Assembly (NCBI GenBank): GCA_964498765.1
Contig: CAZCIU010000006.1
Coordinates: 8,110 to 72,109 of the forward strand
Length of the DNA: 64,000 bases
Direction of reading: 5' to 3'
From: an uncultured Paludibacter sp.
Lineage (GTDB): Bacteria; Bacteroidota; Bacteroidia; Bacteroidales; Paludibacteraceae
In this document: positions 42,071 to 49,897 of the stretch, piece by piece
How positions within the stretch are numbered: the stretch's first letter is position 1
How the letters are laid out: the number at the start of each line of letters is the position of its first letter
The notes under the pieces: model-generated
Seen by the model: the letters and a program-made list of their open reading frames with translations, nothing else
Told to the model about the DNA's origin: nothing
The model's database searches: none
Program-made: the position numbers and the translations under genes

Positions 42071-43015
42071 TCATTCCAAACACTTTCGGGTTAAGAAATA
42101 ACGGGTATTTCGATTTTCCAAATCATCGATATTATTGTCAACCACACCAATCAAGCAGTGTGATTTCGTTTTTGCGTCGTAGATAAATCGCTTAACTAGT
42201 GAAAAATTCTTGATTTCAGATGTGTTATTCACATGAAAACGCGACCCATCACAAGTCACTATTCTGTCTCCAATCATTATATGATCTTCATCGTAATACG
42301 ATATTGGCATGTTTTGAGCAATTTTCTCATCAATAAGCCTAGCCAATTTTTCCAAATCAATCTTCGGTTTTTTGTAAAATTTAATCACAAAGCCATTCCT
42401 AATATCGGAAAAGAAATATTCATCAACTTGGATATCAAAATACTCGTGAAGCACTTCGGTAGTAACTTCTTCGGCCGAATGCGCCATTTTACGAAACTTG
42501 AGCGATTCGTGTACAATTTTGTAAACGCTTTCGGGCTGAGGTCCAAAAATACTGGGTCGGGTAACGATGATTTCTTCACCAATTCCCACGATAATATCGG
42601 CATTCCTTCCCAAAGCAGGATATAATAAGTTGAAATGCTCGATGACCACTCGGCGATTTCGCTCCAACAACGAATTCACATAATCTACAATTTCGAACAT
42701 CTGCGTGAAAGCCATCTGAAAGCGGATATCAAGGTGAAACGTAGTGGCTTCATCTACTTCCATCATGGAGTTTCGCACCTGCAGCATCTTACGTGGATTC
42801 ACAATATCGTCGTCGTTTGAGAGTTGTAATCCGGGAAACATCCCTTTTATCAAGGACGATTTTCCGGCACCAGCATCGCCGACAACACCGATTAGCTTGT
42901 CACTGTAATTCAAATGACGGTGTGAAATCTGCTCGCCGAGAAACATCAGTCGCTCCTTCCCGCGGGGCGCGAAATATTGCGACGAAACCATGTATTCTTG
43001 AATGAAGTTGCGCAT
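42071..43015 (-). CDS. Walker-A (P-loop) protein of unknown family, last gene of the glm-mal operon
   Basis: 314 aa, ATG at 43015. P-loop GVVGDAGAGKSS. It starts 19 nt after the DUF4387-like stop codon. Confidence 0.6.
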   Translation of the reverse strand: MRNFIQEYMVSSQYFAPRGKERLMFLGEQISHRHLNYSDKLIGVVGDAGAGKSSLIKGMFPGLQLSNDDDIVNPRKMLQVRNSMMEVDEATTFHLDIRFQMAFTQMFEIVDYVNSLLERNRRVVIEHFNLLYPALGRNADIIVGIGEEIIVTRPSIFGPQPESVYKIVHESLKFRKMAHSAEEVTTEVLHEYFDIQVDEYFFSDIRNGFVIKFYKKPKIDLEKLARLIDEKIAQNMPISYYDEDHIMIGDRIVTCDGSRFHVNNTSEIKNFSLVKRFIYDAKTKSHCLIGVVDNNIDDLENRNTRYFLTRKCLE

Positions 43016-43034
43016 ATCAATTTACGATTGAGTG

Positions 43035-43352
43035 TTACAATTCAAAGGTCAATTTCATCAACGGCGCATGTTGTTGAGCACCGTACACATCAGTTTCGCC
43101 CAAAGCTCCCGAAGGAATAGGGCGCACGATGGTGGTTTTTATCGCTTTTGCGGGGTCAAAATGTACCACTCCGATAATGTCAGACACGGGAATTTGATAC
43201 AGTTCGGCAAACATTTTTTCGTTAAATACTTTTGCTGCTTTCACACGCTCGTACATTTCAAAGTCCTTGAAAATAACGTCAAACGTTAATTCGTAGGGAC
43301 CCGAATTTTTGCTTCTGATGACGGAAGCTACGTCGGTTAGATTGTATTTCAT
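43035..43352 (-). CDS. DUF4387-like small protein (equivalent to the C-terminal part of AtuA)
   Basis: The ATG at 43352 gives 105 aa. The track's 43379 start is a TTG. IRSKNSGPYELTFDVIF...YERVK and DVYGAQQHAPL match what I remember of DUF4387. Confidence 0.55.
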   Translation of the reverse strand: MKYNLTDVASVIRSKNSGPYELTFDVIFKDFEMYERVKAAKVFNEKMFAELYQIPVSDIIGVVHFDPAKAIKTTIVRPIPSGALGETDVYGAQQHAPLMKLTFEL

Positions 43353-43369
43353 TTTTTTATTTTTAGAAT

Positions 43370-43423
43370 CAAGATGCAAGAACCAAGAGCCAAGACTAAG
43401 TCTCGAAACTCAGAACTCTAAAC
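43370..43423. repeat. Degenerate 7-8-nt periodic spacer (coding strand GAGTTT/AGAGTTCT/.../AGTCTTG/GCTCTTG/GTTCTTG/CATCTTG)
   Basis: Read on the minus strand, between the AtuA-like stop codon and the DUF4387-like start codon. Confidence 0.7.
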
Positions 43424-46587: not shown

Positions 46588-48039
46588 TTATCTTGGTCGT
46601 CCTACAAGAAATCCTTTGCCGATGGCATATACATCATCAATCACCATTTGGAAACTAACGGCGCGTTTTTCGTATTTGGCACGTTCTTCCAATTTTTGTC
46701 GGTGGAAATCAATGAGGTCTTGTGTGAACGGCATATTACCAATTTCGAGGAAACGAACGGCACCCACATTGTCGCGGGCAGGCATCACTTTTCCGGCATT
46801 GTAACGGCTTGGAGCAAACGGAATATCTAGCACTCCGGCTTCAAAAGCGGCAACTGTACCAACAGCGTAATCTCCTTTTCCCAGTTCTTCCACTTTATTC
46901 AAAATGCAACGCATCTCTTTCATGATAATTTCGCTTTCAGCCACAACAGCAGGAATTGAGCGGAAATCCTGATCTTTCAGCATGGAAACCAACTGTTTCG
47001 TTGCACGCAATCCGGCAGCATTGGCTTCTTTGGTGGGAACACCCATCGCTTCGTGCGGCGTTTTTACGATTACTTTCGTGGCTTTTGCCAATACGGCAGC
47101 AGCCGCACCCCAAGAAATCACACCGAAAGCTTTGGCTTCATCCTGTGGAAATCCACCCATCCATTGGTGGAAAACGGTGGTAACGCGTACATCGTGAAAG
47201 CCAAACTTATCGAGATACTCACGTGTGAGAATATTGAGTGAGCGAATGGCGGCAACGTCCTGAATAAGGTTTCCGCATTGTCCGTAGCCCACCGTAACGT
47301 CTTTTACGCCTTGCGTAGCAGCCAATAATGTCTCAATAATAGCGACTGAATTGGAAATACAAGGCGAAATAAGCGTTCCGGTAAGCGGACCGAACGGCTC
47401 GCGGTTGATGGAAACACCGGCTTCTTCATACAGTCCGACAAGGCGGTCAGTATATTGCCAGTGTGCGATGGTTTTCTCAATGGAGTGAGCTTTGGAATAA
47501 GGAATATTGTATGAAATGCCACCGCCTTCGTACGATGTAAAACCACCTGCGATGGAGAGTTCGGTAAGCAAGCGTGCATCGGGCGTTCCGTGGCGCACCT
47601 GTACGGGACTTTTAACTGCCGAAGTTACTTTTCGGCAAATATCAACGCCGTAGTTTACAATTGGAAAGCCGTTCAGCATAGAACGTCCGGTTTCCTTACT
47701 TTTTTCAATTCCGGTTTCGGCTTCGTTGTAACGATTGAGACGCGTGTAGCTGTCAACGGTAGTGGGGAGCAAGTCGGCTTCGCCTTCGGTTTCGAGAAAG
47801 CGGAGCAACTCAATATGCTCTTCGTAAAGCGCTACGCCGGCGCGTGGCTGAATAAGCGTAATGCCATCGGCAACAGCTTTGGATAGCTTTTCACCAAAGC
47901 GTTTTTCATTGGGAATGGACTTTTGGTATGCAACGGCTTCGTCGAAATCAACACCTTTTCCGGTGTGCCAATGACCAAGAATTTCCTTGCGCTCGGCAAA
48001 GAAAACATCGTCTGAAAGTTTTTGGTTTTTAATTTGCAT
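46588..48039 (-). CDS. glmE: Glutamate mutase (methylaspartate mutase) epsilon subunit
   Basis: 483 aa. The N-terminus [40 protein letters not shown] closely resembles clostridial GlmE/MutE. Confidence 0.9.
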
Positions 48040-48070
48040 CAGATTGGTTATTTATTCAATTTTTCATGAA

Positions 48071-49447
48071 TTATTTTATTTCTTTTTTCATTATTTCCAG
48101 CGCCAATTCGGGATAAACCGCGCTGAGCAAGCCCATAGAGGCAAAGATATATTTTTTATCGATTAAATAATCGGGATTTTTAGGTTTGGCGTACACAAAA
48201 TCACCGGCTTGAAGTTTGGCACCTTCCAAAATGTTTTGCGGATTTTCAGCATTTATAATTGCTCCTCCAATTCCAATAATGAACGGCACGGCCGACAAAT
48301 CTTTTCCGTTTAGCGAGAATACTTGTCCGAAAGGTGTGTAAGCCGGTTGATAGATGCCAGCGTGACGTTCCACGGCAATTTTCACGGCACTTCGAGCCAA
48401 TGCTTCTTCCACTTTTTGTTCAACGGAATTTGGATTTGCCAAGGTATCAGGATTGTTACAGCAAGCTTTTACCCAATCAGAAATTTCTGACGATTGAACG
48501 CCTATTTCCTCCGAAAGAACATCTAAATCCAGTTCATCTGCCAACGATGAAAGGCTGTAACGCATTCCCAAATCGCCTTCCACGGTGCGTTTACTCACAG
48601 GTTCGGGTAAACCTTTAATAATGACATTTTCCAAGGTAGGTTTTCCGTCGGAAATGGAATAAACATCCGTTGTGGCACCTCCGATATCCACCGCAAGCAA
48701 ATCGCCAATTCCATCGGCCGATTTTGTTCCTTTGCTCAGTAATTCGCAGGCATTAAGTACTGCCAACGGCGTAGGAATAATGTCTGTTTTGCACATTTGC
48801 TGAATGCGGTTCAATCCTTTTGCTTCGATGATGCGGCTGATAAAGAGTTCTTTGATTTTTTGCTTGGCGGGAGCGATGTTGAGTTTGTTGAACTCGGGCA
48901 TCACGTTTTCCGTAATTTCGAATGATTTTCCCGATGCTTCAAAAATCTCTTTCAGTTCAAACGAAGCACTTTTATTTCCGGCGGCAATTATCGTAAACGG
49001 ACGATCAATTTGACATAATCGACGTGCATTGGCAAGGATAACTTCTTTGTTTCCACCGTCAGTTCCTCCGCTCAGCAGTACCAAGTCAGGATTTATTTTA
49101 AAAATTTCTGTCTGTTCAGCTTCCGATATTTCGAAGGAATAGGTTTTCACCACTTTGGCTCCGGCGCTGGCAGCAGCTAATTTCGCCGCTTTGGCGGTGA
49201 GCTCGGGAACCAGTCCCAATGCTACCATCTTCAAGCCGCCAGCTGCACTGCTGCAACACAGCAACTCATCATAATTAAACTTCCCGATTTGCTGCTCCAA
49301 CTTGGAATAGGCAGCCATAAATCCCTCTACCACATCGGTTTCGATGGTGGTAAAAGCGGCAGAAGTTGCAAGAATTTTCTTTGCAACAGTGTCAATAGCC
49401 GTCAATTTGGTGTAGGTGCTTCCTATATCAGCTGTGAGAATGTTCAT
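48071..49447 (-). CDS. glmL: Glutamate mutase accessory/reactivase protein GlmL (MutL)
   Basis: 458 aa. ASKHA-type ATPase motifs (DIGSTYTK, DIGGATTD). The gene lies between glmS and glmE. Confidence 0.85.
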   Translation of the reverse strand: MNILTADIGSTYTKLTAIDTVAKKILATSAAFTTIETDVVEGFMAAYSKLEQQIGKFNYDELLCCSSAAGGLKMVALGLVPELTAKAAKLAAASAGAKVVKTYSFEISEAEQTEIFKINPDLVLLSGGTDGGNKEVILANARRLCQIDRPFTIIAAGNKSASFELKEIFEASGKSFEITENVMPEFNKLNIAPAKQKIKELFISRIIEAKGLNRIQQMCKTDIIPTPLAVLNACELLSKGTKSADGIGDLLAVDIGGATTDVYSISDGKPTLENVIIKGLPEPVSKRTVEGDLGMRYSLSSLADELDLDVLSEEIGVQSSEISDWVKACCNNPDTLANPNSVEQKVEEALARSAVKIAVERHAGIYQPAYTPFGQVFSLNGKDLSAVPFIIGIGGAIINAENPQNILEGAKLQAGDFVYAKPKNPDYLIDKKYIFASMGLLSAVYPELALEIMKKEIK

Positions 49448-49486
49448 TTTGATACTTTGCGGTTTCCGAAAGAAAGTGCGAATAAA

Positions 49487-49897
49487 TTATAAACCAAGAA
49501 TTTCTTCCAAATCGGCAATACTGGTTTCAACGGCAGTTCCTGGAGGATAAACGCGGGTGAAGCCCATATCGAGGAACCGTTTTTCAACGTCTTCGAAGTT
49601 TTGTTTTCCCACAACAAGGTTGCCGCCTGCCAAAAGAGGGATGTTTTTAAGTCCGGCTTCATCGCATTTTTCGCGCAGTCCGCTGCAATCGATTTCTCCG
49701 TGACCGTAGAGCGATGATACCAAAATGGCGTCCGCGTTTGTTTCAATGGCAGCTTCAATGTATTCTTCCTGCGCTACCATTACGCCTAAATTGATTACCT
49801 TAAATCCAGCTTGCTCCAAAGCATAAGCGAGAATTTTATTTCCCACCGCGTGAACATCGGCACCAATTACGCCGGTTACAATTGTTTTTCCGTTCAT
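49487..49897 (-). CDS. glmS: Glutamate mutase sigma (B12-binding) subunit
   Basis: 136 aa. Base-off/His-on motif DxHxxG as ADVHAVGN. Confidence 0.9.

What the first reader, a model, noticed from the sequence alone, without database searches (positions are those of the whole stretch)
42071..49897. Glutamate mutase / methylaspartase operon runs on into a split AtuA-like pair and an orphan P-loop protein, with no mesaconase or citramalate lyase
Seen in sequence: eight same-strand genes are separated by gaps of 39, 31, 46, 52, 48, 71 and 19 nt, with no hairpin-plus-T-tract terminator between them. In order they are glmS (DxHxxG as ADVHAVG), glmL, glmE, an inserted GxxExxY gene, mal, a 452-aa AtuA/DUF1446-like protein, a 105-aa DUF4387-like protein and a 314-aa Walker-A protein.
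Established knowledge: after methylaspartate ammonia-lyase, the methylaspartate route of glutamate fermentation needs mesaconate hydratase (assigned to class I fumarase-type enzymes where it is known) and citramalate lyase. AtuA of the Pseudomonas acyclic-terpene cluster has, to my knowledge, no demonstrated biochemical activity.
Inference: neither downstream enzyme is encoded in this operon, and three proteins of unknown function sit directly downstream of mal. The AtuA-like pair, with or without the P-loop protein, is therefore a candidate for an undescribed mesaconate- or methylaspartate-processing step.
Basis: partly seen in the sequence, partly recalled or inferred. Interest (0 to 1): 0.75.

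Follow-up and report, generated by a model that had tools for sequence, protein, structure and literature searches.

The report
Glutamate fermentation operon, mesaconase recently deleted
This is a Bacteroidales operon for fermenting glutamate through methylaspartate: the "AtuA-like/DUF4387" pair is the recently solved two-subunit citramalate lyase CmlAB, the mesaconase genes were lost in a recent 1.5-kb deletion, and only the small ATPase gene remains unexplained.

Summary
Eight minus-strand genes have the stated gaps and family calls.

- **The AtuA/DUF4387 pair is not an undescribed enzyme.** It matches PDB 9ERQ/9EVF, deposited as "Citramalate lyase, subunit A (cmlA)" and "subunit B (cmlB)". 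The E-values are 7e-153 and 1e-27 (54% and 48% identity). So the citramalate lyase is encoded here.
- **The missing mesaconase is a recent loss.** A frameshifted stub of the class I fumarase-type alpha-subunit gene follows the ATPase gene at 42074-41890. The closest relative, L005, has the rest of that gene and the beta gene in 1.5 kb. The window has 105 nt there instead.
- **The normal Bacteroidales operon has nine genes:** glmS-glmL-glmE-mal-cmlA-cmlB-ATPase-mesA-mesB. It appears in 36 of 45 loci with at least 6 kb on both sides.
- **The pair is widely linked to mal.** E. coli (1123 of 5426 genomes), Halobacteroides, Oscillospiraceae and Vallitalea also have cmlAB next to mal.
- **The 314-aa P-loop protein is not an orphan.** It sits in methylaspartate clusters of two phyla, with either CmlAB or classical CitDEF lyase. 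Its function is unknown.

Verdict: an ordinary, slightly decayed member of a known pathway, with one modestly interesting leftover gene.

The parts
49898..50152 (-). Promoter and leader region of the operon. It contains TAAATTTG at 49929-49922, which fits the Bacteroidetes -7 element TAnnTTTG, 25 nt upstream of the glmS ATG.
   Evidence: Sequence read. A terminator-like hairpin of the upstream gene lies at about 50153-50179. The promoter assignment is an inference from the published Bacteroides consensus (my own knowledge). There is no Rfam riboswitch.
49487..49897 (-). glmS, glutamate (methylaspartate) mutase B12-binding subunit S, 136 aa
   Evidence: NF002612 7.8e-64, TIGR01501 1e-59, PF02310. 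DxHxxG is present as DVHAVG.
48071..49447 (-). glmL, glutamate mutase accessory protein (ASKHA-type), 458 aa
   Evidence: NF040745 3.7e-187, 622.7 bits against a cut-off of 475; PF13941.
46588..48039 (-). glmE, glutamate mutase catalytic subunit E, 483 aa
   Evidence: TIGR01503 8.9e-231; PF06368 5e-226.
46128..46541 (-). GxxExxY / PD-(D/E)XK_3 gene, 137 aa. It is a lineage-specific insertion and not part of the pathway.
   Evidence: TIGR04256 1.7e-38, PF13366. Among 80 Bacteroidales loci it is present at this position only in L005.
44831..46075 (-). mal, 3-methylaspartate ammonia-lyase, 414 aa
   Evidence: TIGR01502 3.4e-173; PF05034 and PF07476.
43424..44782 (-). cmlA, large subunit of the AtuA-family citramalate lyase, 452 aa
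   Evidence: PDB 9erq_A 'Citramalate lyase, subunit A (cmlA)' E 7.1e-153 over residues 4-442. Identity is 54%. It keeps 56 of 57 family-conserved columns. PF07287 5.5e-24.
43035..43352 (-). cmlB, small subunit (DUF4387) of citramalate lyase, 105 aa
   Evidence: PDB 9erq_B 'Citramalate lyase, subunit B (cmlB)' E 9.6e-28 over residues 1-104, 48% identity. PF14330 2.1e-41.
42071..43015 (-). Conserved P-loop NTPase of unknown function, 314 aa. It has Walker A GDAGAGKS, a TsaE-like N-terminal domain and an AlaX-like C-terminal domain.
   Evidence: No Pfam or NCBIfam family. The AF2 model has pLDDT 76. Foldseek gives 2e1b AlaX-M 1.9e-4 and TsaE/YjeE 6n9a_E and 1fl9_A about 7e-4. It lies downstream of cmlB in 61 of 71 Bacteroidales loci and 35 of 45 Firmicutes-type loci. 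dN/dS against L005 is 0.022.
41890..42074 (-). Pseudogene stub of the mesaconase (class I fumarase-type) alpha-subunit gene. Its ATG overlaps the P-loop stop codon (ATGA), a stop follows after 8 codons, and it carries 1-nt and 8-nt deletions.
   Evidence: tblastn of the L002 Fumerase protein, aa 32-65, matches window 41990-41889 at 65% identity, E 5e-9. Homology ends at 41890 in every comparison.
41785..41889 (.). Deletion junction. These 105 nt stand where L005 has 1501 nt (7305-8805) holding the rest of mesA and all of mesB.
   Evidence: blastn of L005 against the window: 4372-7304 = 44776-41890 and 8806-10388 = 41784-40206.
41778..41811 (.). Strong 15-bp hairpin with T-runs on both sides. 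It is probably a shared bidirectional terminator for the operon (minus strand) and the convergent catalase gene (40266-41753, plus strand).
   Evidence: Terminator scan, sequence, catalase Pfam hit.

Best explanation
The region is a Bacteroidales operon for the methylaspartate route of glutamate fermentation.

**Proposed pathway.**
1. GlmS and GlmE, with the accessory protein GlmL, convert (S)-glutamate to (2S,3S)-3-methylaspartate.
2. Mal removes ammonia from 3-methylaspartate to give mesaconate.
3. A class I fumarase-type mesaconase hydrates mesaconate to (S)-citramalate.
4. The AtuA-like and DUF4387 proteins form the two-subunit citramalate lyase CmlAB. It cleaves citramalate directly to pyruvate and acetate, without the acyl-carrier machinery of CitDEF.

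**What happened in this genome.** The ancestral operon ended with the mesaconase genes mesA and mesB, directly after a conserved P-loop NTPase gene. Here a deletion of about 1.5 kb removed them and left a frameshifted stub. Hydration of mesaconate must now depend on another class I fumarase elsewhere in the genome, or the pathway is blocked at mesaconate.

**Status of each step.** Shown here: the family assignments, the orthology to the solved CmlAB, the deletion, and the conserved gene order. Taken from others: the CmlAB activity (PDB depositors' names and a preprint). Inferred: that the window's proteins have the same activity, and that a housekeeping fumarase substitutes for mesaconase. Unknown: the role of the P-loop protein. 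My best guess is an accessory ATPase of the pathway, possibly working with GlmL on the B12 enzyme.
For: **Enzyme identities.** Equivalog-level hits for glmS, glmL, glmE and mal.

**CmlAB assignment.**
- cmlA matches 9erq_A at E 7e-153 and cmlB matches 9erq_B at E 1e-27. Both chains are named citramalate lyase subunits by the depositors.
- Identities are 54% and 48%, and 56 of 57 family-conserved columns are kept.
- The E. coli DUF1446 gene next to mal is 92% identical to the PDB chain. This ties CmlA to the glm-mal-fumD cluster of PMC4682846.
[quoted passage not shown] With FumA it supports mesaconate-dependent growth and labelling of acetyl-CoA.
- Fused AtuA+DUF4387 proteins exist.
- cmlAB and citEF occupy the same slot after mal and never co-occur in the same locus in the 59 loci that have at least 6 kb on each side of the P-loop gene.

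**Gene order.**
- The nine-gene order occurs in 36 of 45 fully covered Bacteroidales loci.
- The same glmSLE-mal-cmlAB core occurs in E. coli (1123 genomes), Halobacteroides, Oscillospiraceae and Vallitalea.

**Deletion.**

**Retained genes are constrained.** dN/dS is 0.02-0.06 for the pathway genes and the P-loop gene, and 0.11 for GxxExxY.

**Co-expression in a relative.** mal and the two AtuA-family genes are co-induced in Prevotella intermedia.
Against: - No activity has been measured for these Bacteroidales proteins. 54% and 48% identity to the characterised enzyme is good, but it is not proof of the same substrate.
- I found no primary paper on CmlAB in the held library. The activity rests on PDB entry names and one preprint's description of a gifted enzyme.
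- Without mesA and mesB, the operon in this genome may no longer support a complete pathway.
- The rest of the genome could not be searched. No class I fumarase or citE/citF is present in the 64-kb window.
Confidence: 0.85

Rival explanations
1. One reading: the AtuA-like/DUF4387 pair, with or without the P-loop protein, is a new mesaconate- or methylaspartate-processing enzyme that replaces the Fe-S mesaconase.
For: No intact mesaconase gene lies in the window. Several other Bacteroidales loci (L014, L018, L021, L071, L076) and Halobacteroides also lack mesAB in the cluster.
Against: - Most relatives have mesAB in the same operon together with the pair.
- E. coli has FumD mesaconase in the same cluster as the pair (PMC4682846).
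- The window holds a decayed mesA stub.
- The solved homologue is named citramalate lyase, and in vivo it needed FumA to use mesaconate.
- The pair alternates with CitDEF, not with mesAB.
Confidence: 0.04
2. The operon in this genome is a decaying relic. After the loss of mesAB the pathway no longer works, and the remaining genes are on their way to becoming pseudogenes.
For: There is a 1.5-kb deletion plus two frame-breaking indels in the stub. A selfish-looking GxxExxY gene is inserted between glmE and mal.
Against: - All seven pathway-associated genes are full length against their family models.
- They show dN/dS of 0.02-0.06 against the closest relative. That average includes time before the deletion.
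- L005 carries the same GxxExxY insertion with an intact operon.
- At least five other species keep glmSLE-mal-cmlAB-P-loop without mesAB.
- Class I fumarases generally hydrate mesaconate (PMC4682846).
Confidence: 0.15
3. The P-loop gene is a functionally unrelated passenger that merely shares the transcript.
For: - In three Bacteroidales genomes it sits alone between rodA and pyrG-yidC, with no pathway gene within 10 kb.
- It is absent from the E. coli and Halobacteroides clusters.
- Raoultella cmlAB worked in E. coli without it.
- Its folds (TsaE-like and AlaX-like) point to tRNA-related biology rather than organic-acid metabolism.
Against: - It is linked to methylaspartate clusters in two phyla, at 45-50% identity.
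- It lies directly after cmlB in 61 of 71 and 35 of 45 loci.
- It lies after mal in CitDEF-type clusters.
- It is paired with a true GlmL alone in L139 and L150.
- Its stop codon overlaps the mesA start codon in close relatives.
Confidence: 0.35

Closest known systems
CmlAB citramalate lyase (PDB 9ERQ / 9EVF; enterobacterial, used as 'Cml from Raoultella planticola' in bioRxiv 10.64898/2026.01.16.699985)
   Same: - Two subunits of the same sizes: 452 against 456 aa, and 105 against 105 aa.
- Full-length alignments at 54% and 48% identity.
- The same Pfam families (PF07287 and PF14330).
- The same position directly after mal in a glmS-glmL-glmE-mal cluster.
   Different: - A different phylum.
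- The two genes are 71 nt apart rather than overlapping by 4 nt.
- They are followed by a P-loop gene and, ancestrally, a two-subunit mesaconase. E. coli has gltP, single-chain FumD and cobO instead.
- Activity has not been tested for this ortholog.
Clostridial methylaspartate-pathway cluster (mesAB-gntR-glmS-glmL-glmE-mal-citDEF-citCXG; Kronen & Berg 2015, PMC4682846 Fig 4)
   Same: The same pathway logic and the same glmSLE-mal core. The two-subunit class I fumarase-type mesaconase is present in relatives of the window. The P-loop homologue is also found in such clusters (L105).
   Different: The lyase step uses CmlAB instead of the acyl-carrier-dependent CitDEF with its CitC and CitG activation enzymes. 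The mesaconase genes lie at the 3' end of the operon and are deleted in this window.
AtuA of the Pseudomonas acyclic terpene utilisation cluster (PF07287 founder)
   Same: The same Pfam family. Many family members are single chains in which the AtuA part is fused to DUF4387.
   Different: The window protein matches the Pfam model only moderately (E 5.5e-24, best stretch 59-208). It lies in a glutamate fermentation operon, not a terpene/acyl-CoA carboxylase cluster. To my knowledge AtuA itself has no demonstrated activity.
TsaE/YjeE ATPase and AlaX trans-editing protein (structural neighbours of the P-loop protein)
   Same: Foldseek hits to 6n9a_E and 1fl9_A for the N-terminal P-loop domain, and to 2e1b for the C-terminal domain, at E 2e-4 to 1e-3. 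Walker A is conserved.
   Different: TM-scores are low (0.28-0.32 on the query). There is no sequence-level family hit. The canonical AlaX HxxxH/CxxxH zinc motif was not seen. The genomic context has nothing to do with tRNA.

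Membership tests
CmlAB-type (AtuA-family) citramalate lyase | Large subunit homologous over its full length to the solved CmlA | tested here: met
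   E 7.1e-153, query 4-442 against chain 5-440. Identity is 54%. It keeps 56 of 57 columns that are at least 90% conserved in a 31-sequence family alignment.
CmlAB-type (AtuA-family) citramalate lyase | Adjacent small DUF4387 subunit homologous to the solved CmlB | tested here: met
   E 9.6e-28, residues 1-104 of both proteins, 48% identity. PF14330 2.1e-41. Fused versions exist.
CmlAB-type (AtuA-family) citramalate lyase | [quoted passage not shown] | tested here: met
   The pair lies directly downstream of mal here. The same arrangement occurs in E. coli, 41 of 45 Bacteroidales loci, Halobacteroides, Oscillospiraceae and Vallitalea.
CmlAB-type (AtuA-family) citramalate lyase | Catalyses (S)-citramalate to pyruvate plus acetate without CoA or an acyl carrier | not testable with these tools
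   Known only for the enterobacterial enzyme, from the PDB names and the preprint. The catalytic residues are unknown to me because no primary paper was in the library.
Methylaspartate pathway of glutamate fermentation (complete operon) | Glutamate mutase S and E subunits and methylaspartate ammonia-lyase | tested here: met
   Equivalog models well above their cut-offs.
Methylaspartate pathway of glutamate fermentation (complete operon) | Mesaconase (class I fumarase-type hydratase) | tested here: not met
   Only a 185-nt frameshifted stub remains at 42074-41890. The rest was deleted relative to L005. There is no other fumarase in the window. The rest of the genome could not be searched.
Methylaspartate pathway of glutamate fermentation (complete operon) | Citramalate lyase | tested here: met
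   Provided by the CmlAB orthologs. No CitDEF is present.
TsaE/YjeE family (for the P-loop protein) | Score above the TIGR00150 family cut-off | tested here: not met
   16.9 bits against a cut-off of 60.1. Only a weak structural resemblance was found.

The most novel reading that the evidence does not exclude
The 314-aa protein (TsaE-like P-loop domain plus AlaX-like domain) may be an unrecognised accessory factor of the methylaspartate pathway, shared by Bacteroidota and Bacillota. It occurs with either type of citramalate lyase (CmlAB or CitDEF). It may act with GlmL in ATP-dependent maintenance or cofactor loading of the B12-dependent glutamate mutase. The hint for this is the stand-alone glmL + P-loop gene pairs in L139 and L150.
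Probability: 0.35. Interest if true: 0.5.

Novelty: new member of a known kind. Interest (0 to 1): 0.3.

Why it matters
[quoted passage not shown] They can be read as a citramalate lyase. This completes the methylaspartate pathway in Bacteroidales, including oral and gut Prevotella, Porphyromonas, Tannerella and Dysgonomonas, and in many E. coli. It also answers the 2015 question about the fate of citramalate in enterobacteria.

**This window.** The apparent pathway gap is a recent deletion, not a design. This is a caution against inferring new enzymes from one genome's missing genes.

**What remains open.** The conserved ATPase is the one part that could lead to something new. No ATP-dependent step is known in this pathway, and how glutamate mutase is maintained in vivo is poorly understood.

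Tried and rejected
- **Literature.** Searches for DUF4387, AtuA+citramalate, CmlA/CmlB and recent 'citramalate lyase' found no primary CmlAB paper. A search for the pathway in Bacteroidales found nothing relevant.
- **RNA elements.** I looked for a B12 riboswitch or any Rfam element in the operon leader and the whole window. There were none.
- **P-loop protein against PDB sequences.** Single-sequence and profile searches gave only generic Walker-A hits to ABC transporters. I had guessed from the motif GDxGxGKS...DD that it might be HPr-kinase-like. Foldseek gave TsaE and AlaX instead, and no HprK.
- **P-loop protein as a mesaconase maturation factor.** The overlapping stop and start codons with mesA suggested this. 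I rejected it as the main idea because the gene persists where mesAB is absent and sits elsewhere in Firmicutes clusters.
- **P-loop protein as a CobA-type adenosyltransferase analogue.** There is no structural support, and L086 has a real CobA gene next to it.
- **Internal promoters and terminators.** Promoter counts do not exceed shuffled controls, and nearly all terminator-like hits lie inside genes.
- **Class I fumarase and citE/citF in the window.** tblastn and Pfam over 38 further ORFs found none.
- **Not done.** I did not model CmlA. The sequence match to a solved structure made it unnecessary.

Full report
**1. The observation**

Eight ORFs lie head to tail on the minus strand between 49897 and 42071.

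Curated models confirm the family calls:

| Gene | Model | E-value |
|---|---|---|
| glmS | NF002612 | 7.8e-64 |
| glmL | NF040745 | 3.7e-187 |
| glmE | TIGR01503 | 8.9e-231 |
| GxxExxY / PD-(D/E)XK_3 gene | TIGR04256 | 1.7e-38 |
| mal | TIGR01502 | 3.4e-173 |
| AtuA-like | PF07287 | 5.5e-24 |
| DUF4387 | PF14330 | 2.1e-41 |

The 314-aa Walker-A protein matches no family above cut-off.

The consensus scan gives no convincing terminator between the genes. Clear hairpins lie after the upstream acyltransferase gene (about 50153-50179) and at 41811-41778. Promoter-like matches do not exceed shuffled controls (18 found against 19.2 expected).

The leader has no Rfam element. It carries TAAATTTG 25 nt before the glmS start codon. 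This fits the Bacteroides -7 promoter element, an inference from my own knowledge.

The surrounding genes are SusC/SusD, PorV, a C25 peptidase and Por secretion tails. The best protein matches are to Bacteroidales MAGs. The window therefore comes from a member of the Bacteroidales.

**2. What the AtuA-like/DUF4387 pair is**

A sequence search of the Protein Data Bank settles this.
- The 452-aa protein matches chain A of 9ERQ/9EVF at E 7.1e-153 over residues 4-442. [quoted passage not shown]
- The 105-aa protein matches chain B at E 9.6e-28 over residues 1-104. It is named 'DUF4387 domain-containing protein | Citramalate lyase, subunit B (cmlB)'.
- BLASTP identities are 54% and 48%. The window protein keeps 56 of the 57 columns that are at least 90% conserved in an alignment of 31 diverse family members.

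Evidence for the enzyme's activity comes from a January 2026 preprint (10.64898/2026.01.16.699985).
- With the host's FumA, it allowed mesaconate-dependent growth of an acetyl-CoA auxotroph and labelling of acetyl-CoA. Both were lost when the plasmid was cured.

[quoted passage not shown] In E. coli the cluster reads glmS-glmL-glmE-mal-AtuA-DUF4387-gltP-fumD-cobO. It is present in 1123 of 5426 complete genomes.

[quoted passage not shown] CmlAB evidently fills that gap. I found no primary paper on CmlAB in the held library.

**3. Independent comparative support**

The pair acts as one enzyme. Single chains of about 610 aa carry AtuA followed by DUF4387 (P0271, P0272, P0310, P0335).

The core glmSLE-mal-cmlAB recurs in distant lineages:
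- Halobacteroides halobius
- an Oscillospiraceae MAG
- Vallitalea sediminicola

In metagenome loci related to the Oscillospiraceae type, some clusters have the classical citD-citE-citF-citC-citG genes after mal where others have cmlAB (L105, L152). Fifty-nine loci have at least 6 kb on both sides of the P-loop gene. Among them cmlAB and citEF never occur together. That is the pattern expected when one enzyme has replaced another of the same function.

In Prevotella intermedia, mal and the two adjacent AtuA-family genes are co-induced 2.2- to 2.5-fold under iron depletion (PMC10434189 Table 3).

**4. The 'missing' mesaconase**

The closest contigs that carry a 94%-identical CmlA continue after the P-loop gene. 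They have a 280-aa Fumerase (PF05681) gene and a 185-aa Fumerase_C (PF05683) gene. The first one's start codon overlaps the P-loop stop codon.

A scan of species-representative genomes with the P-loop protein returned 80 Bacteroidales loci.
- Of the 45 loci with at least 6 kb on each side, 36 have the nine-gene order glmS-glmL-glmE-mal-cmlA-cmlB-P-loop-mesA-mesB.
- The gene after the P-loop gene is mesA in 67 of 77 loci that have enough downstream sequence.

The window still holds the beginning of mesA.
- The ATG at 42074 overlaps the P-loop stop codon (ATGA).
- A stop codon follows after eight codons.
- Residues 32-65 of the relative's protein still align to 41990-41889 (65% identity, E 5e-9).
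- Compared with three intact relatives, the stub has a 1-nt and an 8-nt deletion.

Homology to every relative ends at 41890. In L005, the nearest genome (85-87% nucleotide identity), positions 7305-8805 hold the rest of mesA and all of mesB. The window has 105 nt in their place. Synteny then resumes with the terminator hairpin and the convergent catalase gene.

So the lack of a mesaconase in this operon is a recent lineage-specific deletion. It is not a sign that another protein does the job.

The seven retained pathway-associated genes are full length. Their dN/dS against L005 is 0.02-0.06. At least five other species keep the operon without mesAB (L014, L018, L021, L071, L076). Class I fumarases in general hydrate mesaconate (PMC4682846). 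I therefore think a housekeeping fumarase probably substitutes. This could not be checked in a 64-kb window, and pathway decay remains possible (about 15%).

**5. The P-loop protein**

It is not an orphan.
- At least 594 species genomes and at least 542 metagenome stretches encode relatives.
- In Bacteroidales it follows cmlB in 61 of 71 loci.
- Homologues of 45-50% identity sit in the Oscillospiraceae and Vallitalea clusters.
- In loci related to the Oscillospiraceae protein, it follows cmlB in 35 of 45 cases, mal in 4 and glmL in 2.
- It is present in CitDEF-type clusters between mal and citD/citE.
- In L139 and L150 it forms a stand-alone pair with a protein that scores as a true GlmL (580 and 588 bits against a cut-off of 475). 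No glmS, glmE or mal lies within 10 kb.

Three observations argue against a dedicated role.
- Three Bacteroidales genomes have it alone between rodA and pyrG-yidC.
- E. coli and Halobacteroides lack it.
- Raoultella cmlAB worked without it.

An AlphaFold model (mean pLDDT 76, C-terminal half above 90) gives weak Foldseek matches. The N-terminal domain resembles TsaE/YjeE (E about 7e-4) and the C-terminal domain resembles AlaX-M (E 1.9e-4). Sequence searches give only Walker-A noise. The Walker A motif, an NDDD motif and an E-H-F motif are invariant across both phyla, so it is probably an active NTPase.

Its function is unknown. My best guess, held at low confidence, is an accessory ATPase of the pathway that may work with GlmL on the B12 enzyme.

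**6. Verdict**

The step, however, is citramalate cleavage, and that enzyme already has a name and a crystal structure. The reasoning from a missing mesaconase and a missing citramalate lyase fails on both counts.

This is a new, phylogenetically distant member of a known kind, in an operon that has lost two genes. The remaining novelty is the conserved ATPase of methylaspartate clusters. It is not among the genes named in the Fig 4 and Fig 5 legends of the 2015 gene-cluster survey.

Noticed in passing
window 46128-46541 (-): A GxxExxY / PD-(D/E)XK_3 gene is inserted between glmE and mal. Among 80 related Bacteroidales loci only L005 has it at this spot (92% aa identity, dN/dS 0.11). It looks like a recently acquired, possibly mobile, small nuclease-fold gene sitting inside a metabolic operon.
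   Followed up: partly
L139 8602-10933 and L150 8542-10933: These are stand-alone two-gene units: a true GlmL (NF040745, 580 and 588 bits) followed 17-20 nt later by the P-loop protein. No glmS, glmE or mal lies within 10 kb. This hints that the two proteins work together.
   Followed up: partly
L030, L039, L065 (about 10001-10945 in each): The P-loop gene sits alone between mreC-PBP2-rodA and pyrG-yidC. L031 has the whole nine-gene operon immediately upstream of pyrG-yidC. Either the pathway genes were lost on both sides of the P-loop gene or they were inserted around it.
   Followed up: partly
P0262 (1096 aa, from the representative search): A single chain carries AtuA, DUF4387 and a family III CoA-transferase domain. 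This suggests that some AtuA-family enzymes act on CoA esters or are coupled to CoA transfer.
   Followed up: no
L087 9001-14037: The cluster reads LysR / cmlA-cmlB-glmS-glmL-glmE, with no mal within 9 kb. It comes from a protein cluster whose longest contig is 5.6 Mb.
   Followed up: no
L088 9001-17286: In a Peptococcaceae genome, cmlAB has no glm or mal genes nearby. It lies 2 kb from fumarase alpha/beta, sdhCAB and malate dehydrogenase. This could be a citramalate or mesaconate route unrelated to glutamate.
   Followed up: no
window 43353-43423: The cmlA-cmlB spacer is 71 nt here and holds a weak hairpin (43406-43390). In E. coli the two genes overlap by 4 nt, and spacers in Bacteroidales relatives range from about 15 to about 500 nt. 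The weak hairpin is probably not meaningful.
   Followed up: partly
window 26296-27399 (+) and 53647-54612 (-): Two sizeable ORFs (367 and 321 aa) have no Pfam match at E 1e-4.
   Followed up: no
window 5126-6349 (+), 40266-41753 (+), 24654-25280 (+): A bacterial serpin (PF00079, 8.7e-105), a catalase and an AhpC-type peroxiredoxin occur in what is otherwise an anaerobe-type Bacteroidales genome. The catalase gene converges on the operon and shares its terminator hairpin.
   Followed up: no
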